Of a stretch of 64,000 nt of DNA, positions 3,004-35,727 are shown one piece after another (the stretch's first letter is position 1; the number at the start of each line of letters is the position of its first letter). The notes under the pieces are model-generated. The model did no database searches and had not been told where the DNA came from. It saw only the letters and a program-made list of their open reading frames with translations. Position numbers and translations under genes: made by a program. Location: the NCBI GenBank assembly GCA_963817955.1, contig CAWFQK010000001.1:448001-512000 (forward strand), in the 5' to 3' direction. The stretch comes from an uncultured Gemmatimonadaceae bacterium. Lineage in GTDB: Bacteria; Gemmatimonadota; Gemmatimonadetes; Gemmatimonadales; Gemmatimonadaceae.

Positions 3004-3069
3004 CGCAGTCGCGGGGGGTGCGGGCTTTGCGGGCCTGCGGGCCACTACCGCCGGCCCGTGCGGCGTGGT

Positions 3070-3171
3070 GGGCTCCGGGCCCGCGACCGGCTGGATGTCG
3101 CTGGCTGCTCGGTACCGGTCGGCCCACCGGTCGGCGAGTTTCGAGTTTCCAGTTGTGAGTTGTGCGTTGTG
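3070..3171 (-). repeat. Inverted partial R element (right hairpin arm plus 3' segment)
   Basis: Reverse complement reads CACAACGCACAACTCACAACTGGAAACTCGAAACTCGCCGACCGGTGGGCCGACCGGTACCGAGCAGCCAGCGACATCCAGCCGG. Confidence 0.9.
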
Positions 3172-3177
3172 ATGTTG

Positions 3178-7230: not shown

Positions 7231-7297
7231 GGGGGGGGGGGGGGGGAGGGGGGGGGGGAGGCGGGACGGCGGGACGGCGGGACGGCGGGACGGCGGG
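7231..7297 (+). repeat. Poly-G tract followed by (GCGGGACG)n
   Basis: About 30 nt of nearly pure G, then about 4.5 copies of the octamer. Confidence 0.85.
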
Positions 7298-7308
7298 TGA
7301 GGTAATCC

Positions 7309-7638
7309 GTTGTGAGTTGTCAGTTGTCAGTTGTGAGTATACGGGTCATGCGCACCAGGGCGCCTGGCTTCGCGGGCCACTATCGCCGGTCGGCGAGGTT
7401 CGGGTGTCCAGTTGTGAGTTGTGAGTTGTGAGTTTTTAACAACGCGCAACGCATAACTCACAACTGGCAACTCGAAACTCGCCGACCGGTGGGCCGACCG
7501 CTACGGAGCAGCCAGCGACATCCAGCCGGTCAACACCCGGAGCTCAATCCACGGCCTCACGATCGGCTGCGCCGGTGGGCCGACCGCTACGGAGCAGCCA
7601 GCGACATCCAGCCGGTCAACACCCGGAGTCCAATCCCC
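7309..7638 (+). repeat. R element copy 1 (3' segment duplicated)
   Basis: Heptamer lead-in, CCAGG-GCG-CCTGG mini-hairpin, long hairpin 7384-7491; the 3' segment is repeated at 7571-7638. Confidence 0.95.
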
Positions 7639-7772
7639 GCCTCGCGATTCCCCGCCCCCCAATCGGCCAACACTCGGAGCGCCCAATCCGGCTTGCGCTG
7701 GTCGGCGATAGGCATATAATTTCACAATAGATCGATAAGATCGGGTAAGATACCTCAAATCGCTGACTCAGC

Positions 7773-8993
7773 ATGAATCCGCTAAACAACCCGTTCTCAC
7801 CCGGAGCCGGCGCCCCTCCGCCCGAGCTCGCTGGTCGTGACGAAATCGTCAACGCCGCGACGATCGCTCTTCACCGTATCCGCGCAGGACGACCGGAAAA
7901 GAGTCAGCTGCTCCTCGGCCTTCGCGGCGTCGGAAAGACGGTCTTGTTGAACCGGATCGCCACCATCGCTGAAGAGACGGGCCATCTCGTCGTCCAATTC
8001 GAAGCACCGGAGGGGCAGAAGCTGGCCGAGTATCTCGCGCCGGCACTGAAAAGCGTCCTCCTCCGACTCAGCCGCGTCGAACGGGCGAAAGACTATGCCG
8101 CCCGCGCCATGGGCGCGCTGAGAGGGTTTGCAAGCGTGTTCAAGGTTTCCATCGGCGAGGTCGGGTTCGGCGTCGCCGAGCCGCAAACCGCCGACAGCGG
8201 CAACATCGAGTTTGATCTTCCTGAGTTACTGATCGCGACAGCGCAAGCGGCGAAAGCCGCGGACACAAGCGTCGCCGTCTTCGTCGATGAGGTCCAATAC
8301 CTGTCGGAGGAGGACCTCCGTGCACTGATCGTTGCGCTGCATCGCGTCGCGCAAAAGGGCTTACCTCTCGTCCTCTTTGGCGCCGGGCTTCCGCAGGTAG
8401 CCGCTCTCGCCGGAGAGGCGAAGTCTTACGCCGAACGGCTGTTCGACTATCCGGAAATCGGCCCTCTCGTTCCTTCGGCGGCAGAGCGTGCGGTACGGGA
8501 ACCCGTCCGCTCTGAAGGGGCGGACATTGACGCTGGAGCACTGCACGGGATCGTCGAGGTGACCCAAGGCTATCCGTACTTTCTGCAGGAATGGGGTAAG
8601 CACGCCTGGAACACTGCGCCACGATCGCCGATCACCGCGGCGGATGTCGAAATGGCCAGCAGGTCTGCGACCGACGCCTTGGACAAGAATTTCTTCCGAG
8701 TCCGGTTCGATAGGCTCACTCCGCGCGAACAGGATTATCTGCGGGCGATGGCGGACCTCGGCCCAGGCCCCCACCGGTCCGGGGCGATCGCTGAGAAGCT
8801 CGGGGCGGCGGTGGAGAACCTCGGTCCGCTGCGGAGCGGCCTCATAAAAAGGGGTATGATTTGGAGCCCGTCACACGGCAACACCGCCTTTACTGTACCC
8901 ATGTTCGACGCGTTCATGCGACGCGCGATCCCAGTTTGGCAGGCACCAGCCGCGCCCAAGCGCCGGGGGGGGACTGTGACCAGTGGTCAGTGA
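7773..8993 (+). CDS. AAA-family ATP-binding protein (family B)
   Basis: NPFSPGAGAPPPELAGRD, GLRGVGKT, VFVDEVQ, GYPYFLQ. Confidence 0.9.
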   Translation: MNPLNNPFSPGAGAPPPELAGRDEIVNAATIALHRIRAGRPEKSQLLLGLRGVGKTVLLNRIATIAEETGHLVVQFEAPEGQKLAEYLAPALKSVLLRLSRVERAKDYAARAMGALRGFASVFKVSIGEVGFGVAEPQTADSGNIEFDLPELLIATAQAAKAADTSVAVFVDEVQYLSEEDLRALIVALHRVAQKGLPLVLFGAGLPQVAALAGEAKSYAERLFDYPEIGPLVPSAAERAVREPVRSEGADIDAGALHGIVEVTQGYPYFLQEWGKHAWNTAPRSPITAADVEMASRSATDALDKNFFRVRFDRLTPREQDYLRAMADLGPGPHRSGAIAEKLGAAVENLGPLRSGLIKRGMIWSPSHGNTAFTVPMFDAFMRRAIPVWQAPAAPKRRGGTVTSGQ

Positions 8994-9247
8994 CCAGTGG
9001 TGAGTTGTGAGTTGTGAGTTGTGAGTTGTGAGTGTACGGGGCATGCGCACCAGGGCGCCTGGCATGCAGGCCACTATCGCCGGTCGGCGAGGTTCGGGTG
9101 TCCAGTTGTGAGTTGTGAGTTGTGAGTTTTTAACAACGCGCAACGCATAACTCACAACTGGCAACTCGAAACTCGCCGACCGGTGGGCCGACCGCTACGG
9201 AGCAGCCAGCGACATCCAGCCGGTCGATACCCGGAGCTCCAATCCCC
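8975..9247 (+). repeat. R element copy 2
   Basis: Core nearly identical to copy 1. Confidence 0.95.
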
Positions 9248-9259
9248 GCCGGTCCGCGA

Positions 9260-20745: not shown

Positions 20746-20903
20746 ATGCACGATAAAACAGGTGACATTGCTTATTAGGCATGATATATCACGCTTAACA
20801 AGCGTGTCAACGGCAAGCACTGCGCTCCGCATGGGCTGGGTGCGAAGGATACGTGATTGGCCTTCCGCGTGGCGGCCGGAATCCGAGCCGAGCCGCGGGT
20901 GGC

Positions 20904-21152
20904 TGTGATCAGTTTTCAGTTTTCAGTGGTGAGTGGTGAGTATACGGGGCCTGCGCACCAGGGTGCCTGGCGCGCAGGCCACTATCGCCGGTCGGCGAGG
21001 TTCGGGTGTCCAGTTGTGCGTTGTGAGCTGTGAGTTTTAAAAACGCGCAACGCATAACACACTACTGGCAACTCGAACCTCGCCGACCGGCGGGCCAACC
21101 GCTACGGAGCAGCCAGCGACATCCAGCCGGAATAGAGCCCGGAGTCCAATCC
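20904..21152 (+). repeat. R element copy 3
   Basis: Same core; flanked by a family-A ATPase scar (20847-20885) and a cytochrome 3' scar (21180-21248). Confidence 0.95.
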
Positions 21153-21469
21153 ACGCCTGCGCCAGTCGGCGATCGAGCCCTACGGCCAATTCACGCCCAT
21201 GGTGCGGTACGCCGCACCGGGCGGAGCATCCCCCCTTCGGCCAGTCGAAGACGGGCTATATGACTACTATGACCTGGGCTAAACGACTACTACAAGGTCG
21301 AACCTGGCACCTTTCCGTAACGCGTGTAGTATCCCCTATCGGCAGATGCCATGGGATACTTGCTATCCAGTCCGTATTTCTGGGATACTGGTCCAATATC
21401 CCTCACGCATATATTCTCCATTGTTGGGATATACGAGTGGTAGTCTCCCTTTACCTACATCTAGGGAAT

Positions 21470-22880: not shown

Positions 22881-22889
22881 GCGGGTGGT

Positions 22890-23133
22890 TGTGATCAGTT
22901 TCCAGTGGTGAGTTGTGAGTATACGGGGCATGCGCACCAGGGTGCCTGGCGCGGAGACCACTATCGCCGGTCGGCGAGGTTGCGGGTGTCCAGTTGTGCG
23001 TTGTGAGTGGTGAGTTTTTGAAACGCGCAACGCATAACTCACCACTGGAAACTCGAACCTCGCCGACCGGTGGGCCGACCGGTACGGAGCAGCCAGCGAC
23101 ATCCAGCCAGTCAACACCCGGAGCCCAATCCCC
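22890..23133 (+). repeat. R element copy 4
   Basis: Same core sequence. Confidence 0.95.
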
Positions 23134-23235
23134 GCCTGCGCCAGTCCGCTCTAAAGGTCGAACCTGGAACCCTTTGACCGATCGTGGGCGAGTGGTACAT
23201 TCCCTCTAAGGGAATATTCCACTGAGGATCTGCGA

Positions 23236-23857: not shown

Positions 23858-24056
23858 GTAGTGCGCCTCAGCCGCGCCGCGGGGTGACTGTGGTCAGTGA
23901 CCAGTTGTCAGTTGTCAGTTGTCAGTGGTCAGTGGTCAGTGGTCAGTATACGGGTCATGGGCACCAGGGCGCCTGGCTCGCAGGCCACTATCGCCGGTCG
24001 GCGAGGTTCGGGTGTCCAGTTGTGAGTTGTGAGCTGTGAGTTTCTAAAAACGCGGT

Positions 24057-24224
24057 ACAAACCGGTCTGATAGGTGAGCAACAAACCGGTCTGATAGGTG
24101 AGCAACAAACCGGTCTGATAGGTGAGCAACAAACCGGGCTGATAGGTGAGCAACAAACCGGGCTGATAGGTGAGCAACAAACCGGGCTGATAGGTGAGCA
24201 AACAGACCGGGCTGATAGGTGAGC
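24057..24224. repeat. 24-bp tandem repeat, about 7 copies
   Basis: ACCGG(T/G)CTGATAGGTGAGCAACAA; the first three copies have T and later ones G; no spacers. Confidence 0.95.
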
Positions 24225-24299
24225 TTGGGTGAGACAGCCTGGACCGGCCGGAAACGGTACGATGCTGCGACCTAGACTGCGGCCGCGCAGCTTTTGCAC

Positions 24300-24677
24300 A
24301 TGCAGGATTTTCGCCGGCTCAAAGTATGGGACAAGGCTGTCGCTCTGGCGCTCGGAGTCCGAAGGGCTACGACGCGGTTTCCAAAGCAGGGCTATTCGGA
24401 ACTGAAAGCGCAGCTGGTCTCGGCTGCCGAATCGGTGGGCAACAACATCGTCGAGGGTTGCGGCGCGAGCACGCAGAAAGAATTCGCGCGCTTTCTGGAA
24501 ATGTCCGTGAAGTCCGCGATGGAGCTCGAGGGCGAACTGGAGCTGGCGTACCGGTACGACGTGCTGCAGGAACGCGACCGGCGCGCCCTTGGCGCAATGA
24601 CAGTCGAGACGCGCCGAATGCTCTGCGGTCTGCGGAACAAGGTGCTGAGCACCACCGGTGAGACCCCACCCCGTTAA
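24300..24677 (+). CDS. Four-helix-bundle protein (23S rRNA IVP-like family)
   Basis: MQDFRRLKVWDKA, FPK..LKAQL..AAESVGNNIVEG, EFARFL..S..EL. Confidence 0.9.
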   Translation: MQDFRRLKVWDKAVALALGVRRATTRFPKQGYSELKAQLVSAAESVGNNIVEGCGASTQKEFARFLEMSVKSAMELEGELELAYRYDVLQERDRRALGAMTVETRRMLCGLRNKVLSTTGETPPR

Positions 24678-24820
24678 CACTCACAACGCACAACTCACAA
24701 CTGGAAACTCGAACCTCGCCGACCGGTGGGCCGCCCGCTACGGAGCAGCCAGCGACATCCAGCCGGCCAACACCCGGAGCCCAATCCACGCCTTCGCCGG
24801 TCCGCGATCACTCAGCCGGA

Positions 24821-28232: not shown

Positions 28233-28415
28233 GTGGTCGCAAAGCTGACCGCTTCCGTACGTGCGCTCGAGGCCCTCTGGAAGACCTCGTACACCACCGC
28301 GAATGAGACTGTCAAGCGGCTAGTCGAGGCAGGGTATCTGACGACCCGTCCTCCCACGGGTCGCCCAGCGATGCGGTACGGCGCGACCGGCGCAACGCGT
28401 CTGGCGTTGTGGTGA
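28233..28415 (+). pseudogene. 3' scar of a further family-A ATPase (wHTH tail)
   Basis: LEALWKTS..VKRLVEAGYL..RYGATGATRLALW* parallels LRGLWKLS..LVRQGYV..YVLSGVSRLIFG*. Confidence 0.6.
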
Positions 28416-28643
28416 GGTGTCAGTGGTGAGGTGTGAGTGGTGAGTTGTGAGTATACAGGCCCTGTGCACCAGGGTGCCTGGCTCGCAGGCTACTATCGCC
28501 GGTCGGCGAGGTTCGGGTGTCCAGTTGTGCGTTGTGAGTGGTGCGTTGTAAAAACGCGCAACGCATAACTCATCACTGGAAACTCGAACCTCGCCGACCG
28601 GTGGGCCGACCGGTACGGAGCAGCCAGCGACATCCAGCCGGTC
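28410..28643 (+). repeat. R element copy 6
   Basis: Same core; the 3' end is cut by a REP-like sequence. Confidence 0.95.
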
Positions 28644-28647
28644 CACA

Positions 28648-28675
28648 GAGATTCTTCGCTTCGCTCAGAATGACA
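28648..28675. repeat. REP-like sequence GAGATTCTTCGCTTCGCTCAGAATGACA
   Basis: Related copies at 35277-35327 and 40639-40684. Confidence 0.7.
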
Positions 28676-31216: not shown

Positions 31217-31416
31217 CCAGTGGTGCGTTGTCAGTTGTCAGTTGTCAGTTGTGAGTTGTGAGTTGTGAGTGTACGGGGCATGCGCACCAGGGCGCCTGGC
31301 ATGCAGGCCACTATCGCCGGTCGGCGAGGTTCGGGTGTCCAGTTGTGAGTTGTGAGTTATGAGTTTCTAAAAACGCATAACTCACAAATGGCAACTCGAA
31401 ACTCGCCGACCGGTGG
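31212..31416 (+). repeat. R element copy 7 (3' segment absent)
   Basis: Lead-in and hairpin present; ends at GCCGACCGGTGG. Confidence 0.95.
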
Positions 31417-31550
31417 GGCGACTTCTGAGCTGTCTGACAGCCCGCAGCCGTTGGCTCTCCGTTCACACTTCGCCACCCCGTCCAAGCGCCGCGGCTTGCA
31501 GCGCGGTGATCTTCCGGGCGGCGACCGTGACGCGAGGAAGCGCCACTCCG

Positions 31551-32827: not shown

Positions 32828-33048
32828 CAAGCTCTGAGGCCACTCCAGTCTCTGCGATCGGGGGCGGCCGGCGACCCCCCGAACAACACGAGGCGACCCG
32901 AATATGGACGTGCGTACCGCCAAAGGCGACTGAACAGCCCCACGCGCACTAATACTGCTTTGGCCGAGGTTCAGCGATAACCGGACGAGTACCGCGCGGG
33001 CAGTGGATGATCGAGCGGGGGCTGGCGGGGGCTGGCGGGGGCTGGCGC

Positions 33049-33287
33049 AAGCGATCGGGACGGCGGGTGACAGTGATCAGTCATCAGTGCGTGGGTCGTC
33101 AGGCCTCAGTGACTGAGGACCCCGACAGCCCTCGATCGGGCGAGGAGACCCGCGACCATCCACCACCATTAAGAACGCGCGGCCACGAAAGCCGGCCCGA
33201 GCGAGAACCCGTCGCGTAGCCGCGCGACTGATGACTGAGCACCGCGTACTGATGACTGAAGACAGTCACCCGCCGTCCCGATCGCTT
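33049..33287 (+). repeat. E2 element (~240 bp, ~38-bp imperfect terminal inverted repeats), copy 1
   Basis: GCGATCGGGACGGCGGGTGACAGTGATCAGTCATCAGT ... ACTGATGACTGAAGACAGTCACCCGCCGTCCCGATCGC. Confidence 0.85.
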
Positions 33288-33349
33288 TACCTCGCGTGGC
33301 GTCGCCGGACCCAGCCGCAGAGGTTCGCGTCGTTACCTGCGGGCCGACT

Positions 33350-34832: not shown

Positions 34833-35417
34833 GTCACTACCCAGTGGACGGGATAAATGTGTAACAAATAACAGTGTTATTCTCTACACTGTAGCTTACT
34901 ACAGTAATCCCTGTACCGTAATACGCTGGTAAAGGCTGCTCGGGCGCGCCAACCACTGCTCGGCCTTACTGGACCGGAACGCGCGGCCATGCTGCGGCGT
35001 CGAAGTAGTCGAAGGGGTCGTGCTTGATGACGCGCGAGAATCGCCCGTAGAGAGGGTGTTAGACTTCAGCAGTACCCGTCCGCTATTGGGTGCCCTATCT
35101 TCCTTTCGTACACTCCCGGGGATGACGATGGCGACTCCTTACAGCGAACTCGAAGCCATGCGACAAGAGGCACGCCGCACCCTCCCGCCGTCGGCTCCCA
35201 CGGCACCTAACGGCGCTGCTGACTGAGCGACTTCTGAGCTGTCCGACAGCCGGCAGCGGTTGGCTCTCCGTTCACAGAGATTCTTCGCTTTGCTCAGGAT
35301 GACAGGGGATTTGCTCAGGATGACAGGCATCCCGTGTCCCGTGTCCCGTGGTTCAGCGCTGGCGGCGGTAGCGGCGCGAACCGTTGAGACTGGGTCCGCA
35401 GCGGCGCGCGGGATCTC

Positions 35418-35654
35418 GCGATCGGGACAGCGGGTGACTGTCTTCAGTCATCAGTAAACGGTGGTCAGTCGTCAGTCGCGCGGCTACGCGACGGGTTCTC
35501 GCTCAGGCCGGCTTTCGCGGCCGCGCGTCTTATTGGGGGGTGGATGGTCGTGGGTCTGTTCGCCCGATCGAGGGCTGTCGGGGTCCTCCGTCACTGAGGA
35601 CTGACAACCCACGCACTGATGACTGATCACAGTCACCCGTCGTCCCGATCGCTT
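35418..35654 (-). repeat. E2 element copy 2, inverted relative to copy 1
   Basis: Reverse complement aligns along the whole length of 33049-33287. Confidence 0.85.
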
Positions 35655-35727
35655 GCGCCAGCCCACGCTCGAACATCCGCCGACTGCGCGGCAGTCGTCC
35701 GCGGTATCGCTCGGAGGATCGCTCAGA

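What the first reader, a model, noticed from the sequence alone, without database searches (positions are those of the whole stretch)
23888..24787. Four-helix-bundle (IVP/Avd-like) gene sits inside the loop of one R hairpin
Seen: in copy 5 the left arm ends ..GTGAGTTTCTAAAAACGCG at 24053 and the right arm resumes immediately after the stop codon at 24678, enclosing a 24-bp array and a 125-aa four-helix-bundle gene. The other six copies have only a short loop. Known: this family was first found in the loop of RNase III-excised 23S rRNA intervening-sequence stems and is structurally related to the nucleic-acid-binding Avd of diversity-generating retroelements; its function is unresolved. Inference: this is either the 'full' form of the element, with the empty hairpins as non-autonomous derivatives, or a gene that targets heptamer hairpins. 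The protein may bind or mobilise R.
Basis: partly seen in the sequence, partly recalled or inferred. Interest (0 to 1): 0.8.

Follow-up and report, generated by a model that had tools for sequence, protein, structure and literature searches.

The report
Hairpin cassette carrying four-helix-bundle gene
A small gene of unknown function sits in the loop of a DNA palindrome whose arm is scattered about 140 times through this genome without the gene, the same packaging surrounds its relatives in many bacterial phyla, and the protein likely helps such hairpins spread.

Summary
A 125-aa PF05635/TIGR02436 gene (24300-24677) lies between 48-bp inverted arms; the six other window copies have short loops.

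Two corrections. The 24-bp array is the expanded left end of an IS481-like element. This copy looks like a chimera: a gene-less R hairpin joined to the gene module of a symmetric cassette on contig C4 (94% identical). It is probably not the parent of the empties.

The general idea holds. Inverted arms enclose 53 of 74 cross-phylum homologues, against 0 of 275 shifted controls. In relatives, 4 of 5 arm families also occur as short gene-less pairs, and none matched 17 control genome tests. The C4 cassette is missing at the orthologous site in congeners. No Y1 transposase was found.

Arm mismatches show no RNA-strand preference (252:253), the predicted promoter lies inside the loop, and neighbouring genes carry a symmetric C-over-G skew. 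These favour a DNA-level, REPIN-like system with this protein in the RAYT's place. Binding and movement are untested.

This scan noted the same architecture on other DNA many times; my paper searches did not find it described outside rRNA.

The parts
23890..23947 (-). Outer heptamer array at the end of the R half-unit B
   Evidence: TRF period 7, 8.3 copies; same position in other B units
23948..23993 (-). Type-B tail (not paired with the right arm); the site hit by four IS481-like copies elsewhere in the genome
   Evidence: 40 BLAST hits genome-wide; IS insertions
23994..24041 (-). Left arm: shared R core plus three heptamers, inverted
   Evidence: 44 of 48 complementary to 24679-24726
24042..24054 (+). 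Loop and first unit of the type found in gene-less hairpins; the junction to the insert follows
   Evidence: Loop variants in empties versus solo units; alignment with empty copy 8975-9250
24055..24240 (+). Left end of an IS481-like element, with its 24-bp subterminal unit expanded from 2 to 7 copies
   Evidence: Matches the left end of a 1377-bp IS present in 4 full copies; transposase scores 206 bits against NF033577, cut-off 224
24241..24299 (+). Leader with a predicted weak -10-like hexamer (24288-24293) 6 nt before the ATG, suggesting a leaderless promoter inside the loop
   Evidence: YANNNT 5-8 nt before ATG in 56 of 78 subclade genes versus 306 of 2602 G000 genes; predicted only
24300..24677 (+). 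Four-helix-bundle gene, 125 aa, PF05635/TIGR02436, pI 9.5
24678..24726 (+). Right arm: three heptamers plus R core, abutting the stop codon
   Evidence: junction variant shared only with the C4 paralogue
24727..24793 (+). Type-A tail of R
   Evidence: 116 BLAST hits genome-wide; 97 A units
8975..9250 (+). Gene-less R hairpin followed by an 88% identical copy of the same downstream cytochrome c gene: the intragenomic empty counterpart
7306..7642 (+). Gene-less R hairpin with duplicated A tail
20890..21157 (+). Gene-less R hairpin
22889..23137 (+). Gene-less R hairpin
28405..28668 (+). Gene-less R hairpin
31218..31422 (+). Gene-less R hairpin, A tail truncated
3069..3176 (-). Solo A half-unit

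Best explanation
The gene and its two inverted arms form a small cassette inserted between host genes, and the basic four-helix-bundle protein likely binds its own arm family as single-stranded DNA hairpins and likely promotes copying of both gene-bearing and gene-less hairpins to new intergenic sites, as RAYTs are thought to do for REPINs. Shown: the architecture, its generality, presence/absence at an orthologous site, two 94% identical copies in one genome, and arm families matched to genes. Inferred: pentamer formation (from the 2GSC homologue), binding, a DNA rather than RNA substrate, and strand joining at the heptamer register, done either by host enzymes or by the protein's near-invariant Q38/N49/E52/S72/E75. 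This copy probably arose when the gene module of the symmetric A-gene-A cassette was joined into an existing empty B-A hairpin at the heptamer junction. The 24-bp array is an incidental IS-end expansion.
For: Generality (score 30 or more): 50 of 59 loci from the same order, 53 of 74 GTDB-wide, 47 of 64 metagenomic, 32 of 39 viral; shifted controls 7/222, 0/275, 3/113, 1/140; cross-locus pairings 39/872, 18/1097, 41/947, 15/569. In G000, 4 of 5 paralogues are enclosed, by three different arm families, each also dispersed. Insertion: at the C4 cassette site the flanking genes' alignable ends are 113-167 nt apart in 3 of 7 congeners versus 879 here, and 0 of 16 orthologous gaps (two sites) hold this gene. 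Pairing: five arm queries matched 6-39 places in all 8 carrier genomes and nothing in 17 control genome tests; 4 of 5 show short inverted pairs too close to hold a gene. Arms are shared by 19 of 25 protein pairs above 70% identity but 6 of 2390 below. Family-specific period: 7/14/21 for 30 of 37 GTDB arms here, mostly 8-10 or 17-19 for GxxExxY. No Y1 transposase in G000 or in 6 of 7 carrier genomes checked; family f3 shows neither Y1_Tnp nor GxxExxY (0 of 8) yet 5 of 5 fetched loci have arms. DNA-level signs: G-U-compatible mismatches 252 sense versus 253 antisense in 149 loci; predicted promoter inside the loop; 14 A-B pairs in the permuted order and two 1.5-mers; C-over-G skew at four-fold sites on both sides, whichever way the neighbour reads.
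Against: No known catalytic fold: the best matches are the family itself and Avd. No binding, expression or movement was observed; the reads were too thin. Genome-specific arms are expected of any species-specific repeat, and arm sharing among close proteins may be plain co-inheritance. No target-site duplication was recognised. One of five paralogues has no arms, and 21 of 74 GTDB loci score under 30. A non-family gene (PEMT) is also enclosed by two A units. 59 A units are solo and have no partner arm. The flank skew swaps G for C with A and T unchanged, which looks more like selection than DNA damage and implies long residence at many sites. The 8 synonymous to 6 non-synonymous codon differences between the two copies show only modest constraint. 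The -10 signal is weak outside this order (9 of 60 GTDB genes).
Confidence: 0.45

Rival explanations
1. RNA-level, IVS-like system kept for the host: read-through transcripts fold the arms into a stem that RNase III cuts or that helps termination, the protein binds such stems, and the hairpins spread by ordinary recombination under selection.
For: The family's known setting is the RNase III-excised 23S IVS, which also has heptamer repeats (PMC4990558). Avd binds RNA and DNA (PMC5758913). Solo A units favour convergent intergenic regions (28 of 59) and avoid divergent ones (5 of 59). The outward strand is C-rich and G-poor, as Rho sites are (recalled), with A and T unchanged.
Against: No G-U excess on the sense strand (252:253). 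In this clade the predicted transcript starts inside the loop, so the 5' arm would not be on the gene's own mRNA. Between tandem genes solo A orientation is 17:9, which I read as no clear bias (no formal test on that split). It does not explain recent near-identical copies or permuted forms. Symmetric use by transcripts of both strands is not excluded.
Confidence: 0.25
2. The protein is a passenger or accessory. Another factor (a GxxExxY nuclease, an IS transposase, or host template switching at palindromes) builds and moves the hairpins, and this gene is favoured cargo or an Avd-like helper.
For: GxxExxY genes have the same layout (18 of 30 at score 36 or more, 0 of 113 shifted) and occur in 24 of 24 congeners. 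R units are mosaics with modules from GxxExxY arms and IS ends. Avd is an accessory to a reverse transcriptase.
Against: Arms persist in family f3, where neither GxxExxY nor Y1_Tnp was found. The two gene families have different repeat periods. The only reverse transcriptase found has no R unit within 20 kb. IS ends are not part of the empty hairpins.
Confidence: 0.2
3. On the narrower question of this copy's history: it is the full parent form and the short-loop hairpins arose from it by one deletion, then multiplied.
For: A single clean deletion converts the filled allele into the empty allele at 8975-9250, which shares the downstream gene.
Against: The retained 13 nt read as the first unit of an empty-type right arm; the symmetric A-gene-A form exists at C4 with 121-nt arms; the shared downstream duplication begins exactly at the right-arm junction.
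Confidence: 0.2
4. Chance: the gene fell next to an abundant repeat in a repeat-rich island.
For: The island is dense in R (about 9% of positions near a unit) and this copy is a chimera carrying an unrelated IS end.
Against: 3 of the 6 arm-enclosed small genes in G000 are this family, and the association holds across phyla against three controls.
Confidence: 0.03

Closest known systems
ORF-bearing intervening sequences of 23S rRNA (S23p; Coxiella, Leptospira). PMC4990558: abstract and passages read
   Same: Same protein family; gene enclosed by terminal inverted repeats; heptamer repeats next to the ORF; the paper cites an older idea that the ORF served mobility.
   Different: Not in rRNA (no Rfam hit in the window; no rRNA hit in 20 of 20 GTDB loci scanned). 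Multi-copy, intergenic, with dispersed gene-less hairpins. Predicted promoter inside the loop. RNase III cleavage not shown.
REPtrons/TIRtrons with REPINs and BIMEs (RAYT/TIRYT). PMC3116915 and PMC3733652: passages read; PMC2817692: listing only
   Same: A gene flanked by inverted repeats whose family is dispersed as singlets, doublets and alternating clusters; one repeat family per gene; extragenic; used as IS targets.
   Different: The protein is an all-helical bundle, not an HUH tyrosine transposase, and none was found in the genome. Arms are built on heptamers. The gene occurs in two near-identical copies, whereas RAYTs are described as single-copy.
Avd of diversity-generating retroelements. 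PMC5758913: passages read
   Same: Same fold (Z 14.4, rmsd 1.9 A, 112 aligned, 7% identity), similar size, basic pI (9.5).
   Different: No reverse transcriptase among the 54 of 60 window ORFs scanned; template and variable repeats were not sought formally.
IS481 family (for the 24-bp array only)
   Same: The array and next 16 or so bases match the left end of a 1377-bp IS with an integrase-core transposase.
   Different: Only the end is present, and the transposase scores just under the NCBIfam cut-off (206 vs 224), so 'IS481-like'.

Membership tests
PF05635 / TIGR02436 four-helix-bundle proteins | HMM score above curated cut-off | tested here: met
   87.8 vs 33.8 and 85.6 vs 24 bits
PF05635 / TIGR02436 four-helix-bundle proteins | Four-helix bundle like Xcc0516 (2GSC) | tested here: met
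   Model pLDDT 95.5; Z 19.7, rmsd 1.2 A, 113 aligned
PF05635 / TIGR02436 four-helix-bundle proteins | Homopentameric ring | not tested
   Known for Xcc0516 (PMC4990558 passage); no complex prediction was obtained
23S rRNA intervening sequence with S23p ORF | Lies within a 23S rRNA gene | tested here: not met
   No Rfam match in the window; flanked by protein genes
23S rRNA intervening sequence with S23p ORF | ORF enclosed by terminal inverted repeats that can form a stem | tested here: met
   44 of 48 bp; fold z -4.3
23S rRNA intervening sequence with S23p ORF | Excised from RNA by RNase III | not testable with these tools
   No RNA holder listed; indirect strand test shows no sense-strand G-U excess
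REPtron/TIRtron-REPIN system | Gene flanked by inverted repeats that are also dispersed as doublets and singlets | tested here: met
   144 cores: 25 short-loop hairpins, 14 permuted pairs, 59 solo A
REPtron/TIRtron-REPIN system | The flanked gene encodes an HUH/Y1 tyrosine transposase | tested here: not met
   Protein is PF05635 and all-helical; no PF01797 match in G000, 94% complete
REPtron/TIRtron-REPIN system | Each gene has its own repeat family | tested here: met
   Three arm families on four G000 paralogues; five arm queries in relatives. Correlation only
REPtron/TIRtron-REPIN system | Excision or insertion seen in population reads | tested here: inconclusive
   Only thin contig coverage
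Diversity-generating retroelement (Avd) | Adjacent reverse transcriptase | tested here: not met
   None among 54 of 60 window ORFs scanned; sole PF00078 match is on another contig
Diversity-generating retroelement (Avd) | Avd fold and basic charge | tested here: met
   Z 14.1-14.4; pI 9.5
DDE insertion sequence / MITE | Target-site duplication | tested here: inconclusive
   None seen by eye at the C4 cassette or empties; congeners too diverged to give the exact empty site
DDE insertion sequence / MITE | Transposase encoded within the full element | tested here: not met
   The only ORF is PF05635
Integron cassette array | Integron integrase and attC sites | tested here: inconclusive
   No integrase family among 54 window ORFs; not sought genome-wide; attC structure not tested

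The most novel reading that the evidence does not exclude
PF05635 proteins are the sequence-specific engine of a widespread class of transposase-free hairpin elements: each pentameric ring reads its own heptamer arms on single-stranded DNA, drives their copying and reshuffling through the genome, and leaves a strand-specific C-over-G mark in neighbouring host genes. rRNA intervening sequences would be members that landed in 23S genes, and DGR Avd a domesticated offshoot.
Probability: 0.3. Interest if true: 0.9.

Novelty: new variant of a known kind. Interest (0 to 1): 0.68.

Why it matters
PF05635 is common (39 of 41 related genomes, up to 13 matches each) and has no known function. Heptamer repeats in bacteria are likewise noted as abundant and little studied (PMC4692102, abstract start only). 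The pairing gives each protein a predicted substrate, its own arms, and built-in negative controls, the arms of paralogues in the same genome. That makes both questions testable with a binding assay and a marked-hairpin mobility assay. If the protein mobilises hairpins, it is a mobile-DNA system with no recognised transposase fold.

Tried and rejected
Reads: no RNA holder was listed. Two DNA runs gave thin contig cover; one 159-nt contig matches 24522-24680 exactly, none spans the cassette or shows a skip of the gene. That run may be the source sample, so this is no evidence either way.

Complex prediction: no result was obtained, so oligomer state is untested.

Orientation of solo A units: the first test (45 of 59 with the upstream gene on the same strand) is confounded by convergent gene pairs, so I set it aside. 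Between tandem genes the split is 17:9.

G-U excess in empty R hairpins (74:13): set aside, because these are inherited family differences and not independent events.

Cytosine deamination as the cause of the flank skew: not supported, since A and T do not rise.

RAYT or a linked reverse transcriptase as mover: not found. The two GIY-YIG matches lie in long frames and were not followed. IS481 as mover: its ends are not part of empty hairpins.

The 24-bp array as a functional part: rejected; the C4 copy has one unit and the IS has two.

Literature: nine searches found no paper linking this family to dispersed inverted repeats outside rRNA. The library lacks most subscription papers. Lin 2006 and Ralph and McClelland 1993 were seen only as cited in PMC4990558. 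PMC4679880 (passages) describes heptamer repeats but not this protein. No supplements were read; those of PMC3733652 might list further flanked genes.

Full report
1. The observation. The window is G000:C1:448001-512000; earlier notes call the organism a soil Gemmatimonadaceae, which I did not test. The ORF 24300-24677 passes the cut-offs of PF05635 and TIGR02436. It folds as four helices (pLDDT 95.5), matching Xcc0516 (Z 19.7) and, more distantly, Avd (Z 14.4, 7% identity). The arms 23994-24041 and 24679-24726 pair at 44 of 48 positions, and the right arm abuts the stop codon. The six other window copies have short loops.

2. What R is. R consists of two half-units that share three heptamers and a 24-nt core and differ in their tails. 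A substitution-only pattern found 144 cores in the genome: 97 type A, 41 type B, 6 other. This is a lower bound, since copies with indels are missed. They occur as 25 short-loop hairpins (22 of them B-A), 14 A-B pairs in the permuted order, two A-B-A clusters and 59 solo A units. This resembles the singlet, doublet and cluster organisation described for REPs (PMC3733652, passages). The R arm gave at most two 30-nt matches among 30 congeners, so it is close to species-specific.

3. What this copy is. The 24-bp array is the left end of a 1377-bp IS481-like element, present in four full copies, with its subterminal unit expanded from two to seven. A 94% identical copy of IS end, leader, gene and right arm lies at C4:1553034-1553622. 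There it is enclosed by two A units with 121-nt arms and one 24-bp unit. The junction variant next to the gene occurs in 3 of 97 A units, all beside these two genes, whereas the window's left side ends in the loop variant typical of empty hairpins. The empty copy at 8975-9250 shares the downstream cytochrome c gene, and that duplication begins at the right-arm junction. The simplest reading is an empty B-A hairpin joined to the gene module of the symmetric cassette. One deletion in the other direction cannot be excluded.

4. Generality. I scored the best inverted match between 300 nt upstream and about 295 nt around and after the stop. Of 272 ORFs found in the fetched loci, 257 were distinct and 236 had enough flank; 21 were dropped for short flanks or long frames. 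The GTDB and metagenome sets are the best 80 of 601 and of 557 relatives; the same-order set favours top hits and close relatives. At score 30 or more: 50 of 59 same-order, 53 of 74 GTDB-wide, 47 of 64 metagenomic and 32 of 39 viral loci. Shifted windows gave 7/222, 0/275, 3/113 and 1/140; cross-locus pairings gave 2-4%; direct-orientation scores reached 30 in 4-9 loci per set. In GTDB loci the arms are mostly period 7, 14 or 21 (30 of 37); in this order many are long and aperiodic (22 of 47). Kin are not independent, so these counts overstate certainty, but the GTDB set spans many phyla. None of 20 GTDB loci scanned held rRNA. In G000, 4 of 5 paralogues are enclosed, by three arm families, and only 3 of about 680 other small genes are, two of them GxxExxY.

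5. Filled and empty. At the C4 cassette site, seven congeners keep both flanking genes on one contig. In three the alignable ends are 113-167 nt apart, against 879 here; the other four carry other sequence. None of 16 gap regions picked by eye at two sites holds this gene family. Five arms from relatives, each searched in five genomes, matched 6-39 places in all 8 carrier genomes and none in 17 control tests. Four of the five show inverted pairs too close to hold a gene; the fifth shows singles and one pair 473 nt apart. This is the one-gene, one-repeat-family pattern of RAYTs and REPINs (PMC3116915, passages). It is a correlation: any species-specific repeat would also be genome-specific.

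6. What could move them. No Y1 transposase was found in G000 (94% complete) or in 6 of 7 carrier genomes checked. In family f3 neither Y1_Tnp nor GxxExxY was found (0 of 8 each), yet 5 of 5 fetched loci have arms. The one reverse transcriptase is unlinked. GxxExxY genes share the layout with a different period, which suggests the protein family sets the arm unit. Across 229 proteins Q38, N49, E52, G53, S72 and E75 are 98-100% conserved and the median pI is 9.4. Whether these residues are catalytic or structural is unknown.

7. DNA or RNA. An RNA stem selected on the gene's strand should favour G-U-compatible mismatches on that strand; the count is 252 to 253 over 149 loci. In this clade a -10-like hexamer sits 5-8 nt before the ATG in 56 of 78 genes, against 306 of 2602 G000 genes, and Shine-Dalgarno motifs are rare (5 of 78). 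If real, the gene's own mRNA would lack the 5' arm. Start codons were assigned by script, and the signal is weak in other phyla (9 of 60). Following a lead from earlier notes, I found a C-over-G skew on the outward strand on both sides, at four-fold sites of neighbouring genes and regardless of their direction (p 1e-12 and 2e-48, sites not independent). A and T do not change, so simple deamination does not fit; selection, including for Rho-like sites on both strands, remains possible. Solo units prefer convergent gaps, which fits either model.

8. Verdict. The best-supported model is a REPIN-like DNA system with a four-helix-bundle protein in the RAYT's place (0.45), ahead of an RNA-level host function (0.25) and a passenger role (0.2). 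It works like a REPtron or TIRtron but is not one, because the HUH transposase is missing. It shares protein and stem with 23S intervening sequences but is not in rRNA. Nine paper searches found no description of this outside rRNA, within a library that lacks most subscription journals; no supplements were read. This scan's earlier notes report the architecture on other DNA many times (93 and 50 matching findings); they are not independent support, and the score rests on the tests above. Class: new variant of a known kind. Interest 0.68.

Noticed in passing
G000 C4:242688-244064, C4:905449-906826, C5:39593-40969, C9:169792-171168: All four full copies of an IS481-like element sit at the same point in the tail of R unit B; a solo left end follows an A unit at C2:413876-413945.
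   Followed up: partly
G000 C2:315675-316052 and C2:764005-764382; loci L311-L340: GxxExxY (PF13366) genes have the same enclosed layout with longer-period arms: 18 of 30 loci at score 36 or more, 0 of 113 shifted controls.
   Followed up: yes
Flanks of 47 same-order loci: Within 150 nt of the arms, four-fold sites of neighbouring genes are 61-64% C and 21-25% G on the outward strand, against 44-47% and 42-43% beyond 500 nt, on both sides. Weak or absent beyond 60 nt in GTDB-wide and viral loci. Lead came from earlier notes.
   Followed up: yes
window 3000-39000: An island of toxin-antitoxin and ATPase genes holds five 1.2-1.7 kb duplications; 5 of their 20 ends lie near R units, against a 9% island background. 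A modest hint that R units act as joining points.
   Followed up: partly
window 33035-33301 and 35402-35668: Two inverted gene-less hairpins of a second family (Q) enclose an ATPase gene; Q arms enclose the paralogue at C4:1054654.
   Followed up: partly
G000 C4:1083568-1084267 (L342): A PEMT/ICMT-family methyltransferase gene lies between two divergent A units, the only single non-family gene so enclosed by R.
   Followed up: partly
G000 C1:420589-420902, C2:812255-812549: R occurs as A-B-A 1.5-mers and as 14 A-B pairs in the permuted order with a shared linker, like BIME clusters.
   Followed up: partly
G000 C4:732178-732693: The genome's only PF00078 match is a stand-alone reverse transcriptase with no R unit nearby; by eye it looks retron-like.
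   Followed up: no
window 7231-7297: A 28-nt G run and an 8-bp array abut the first R hairpin on its G-rich side.
   Followed up: no
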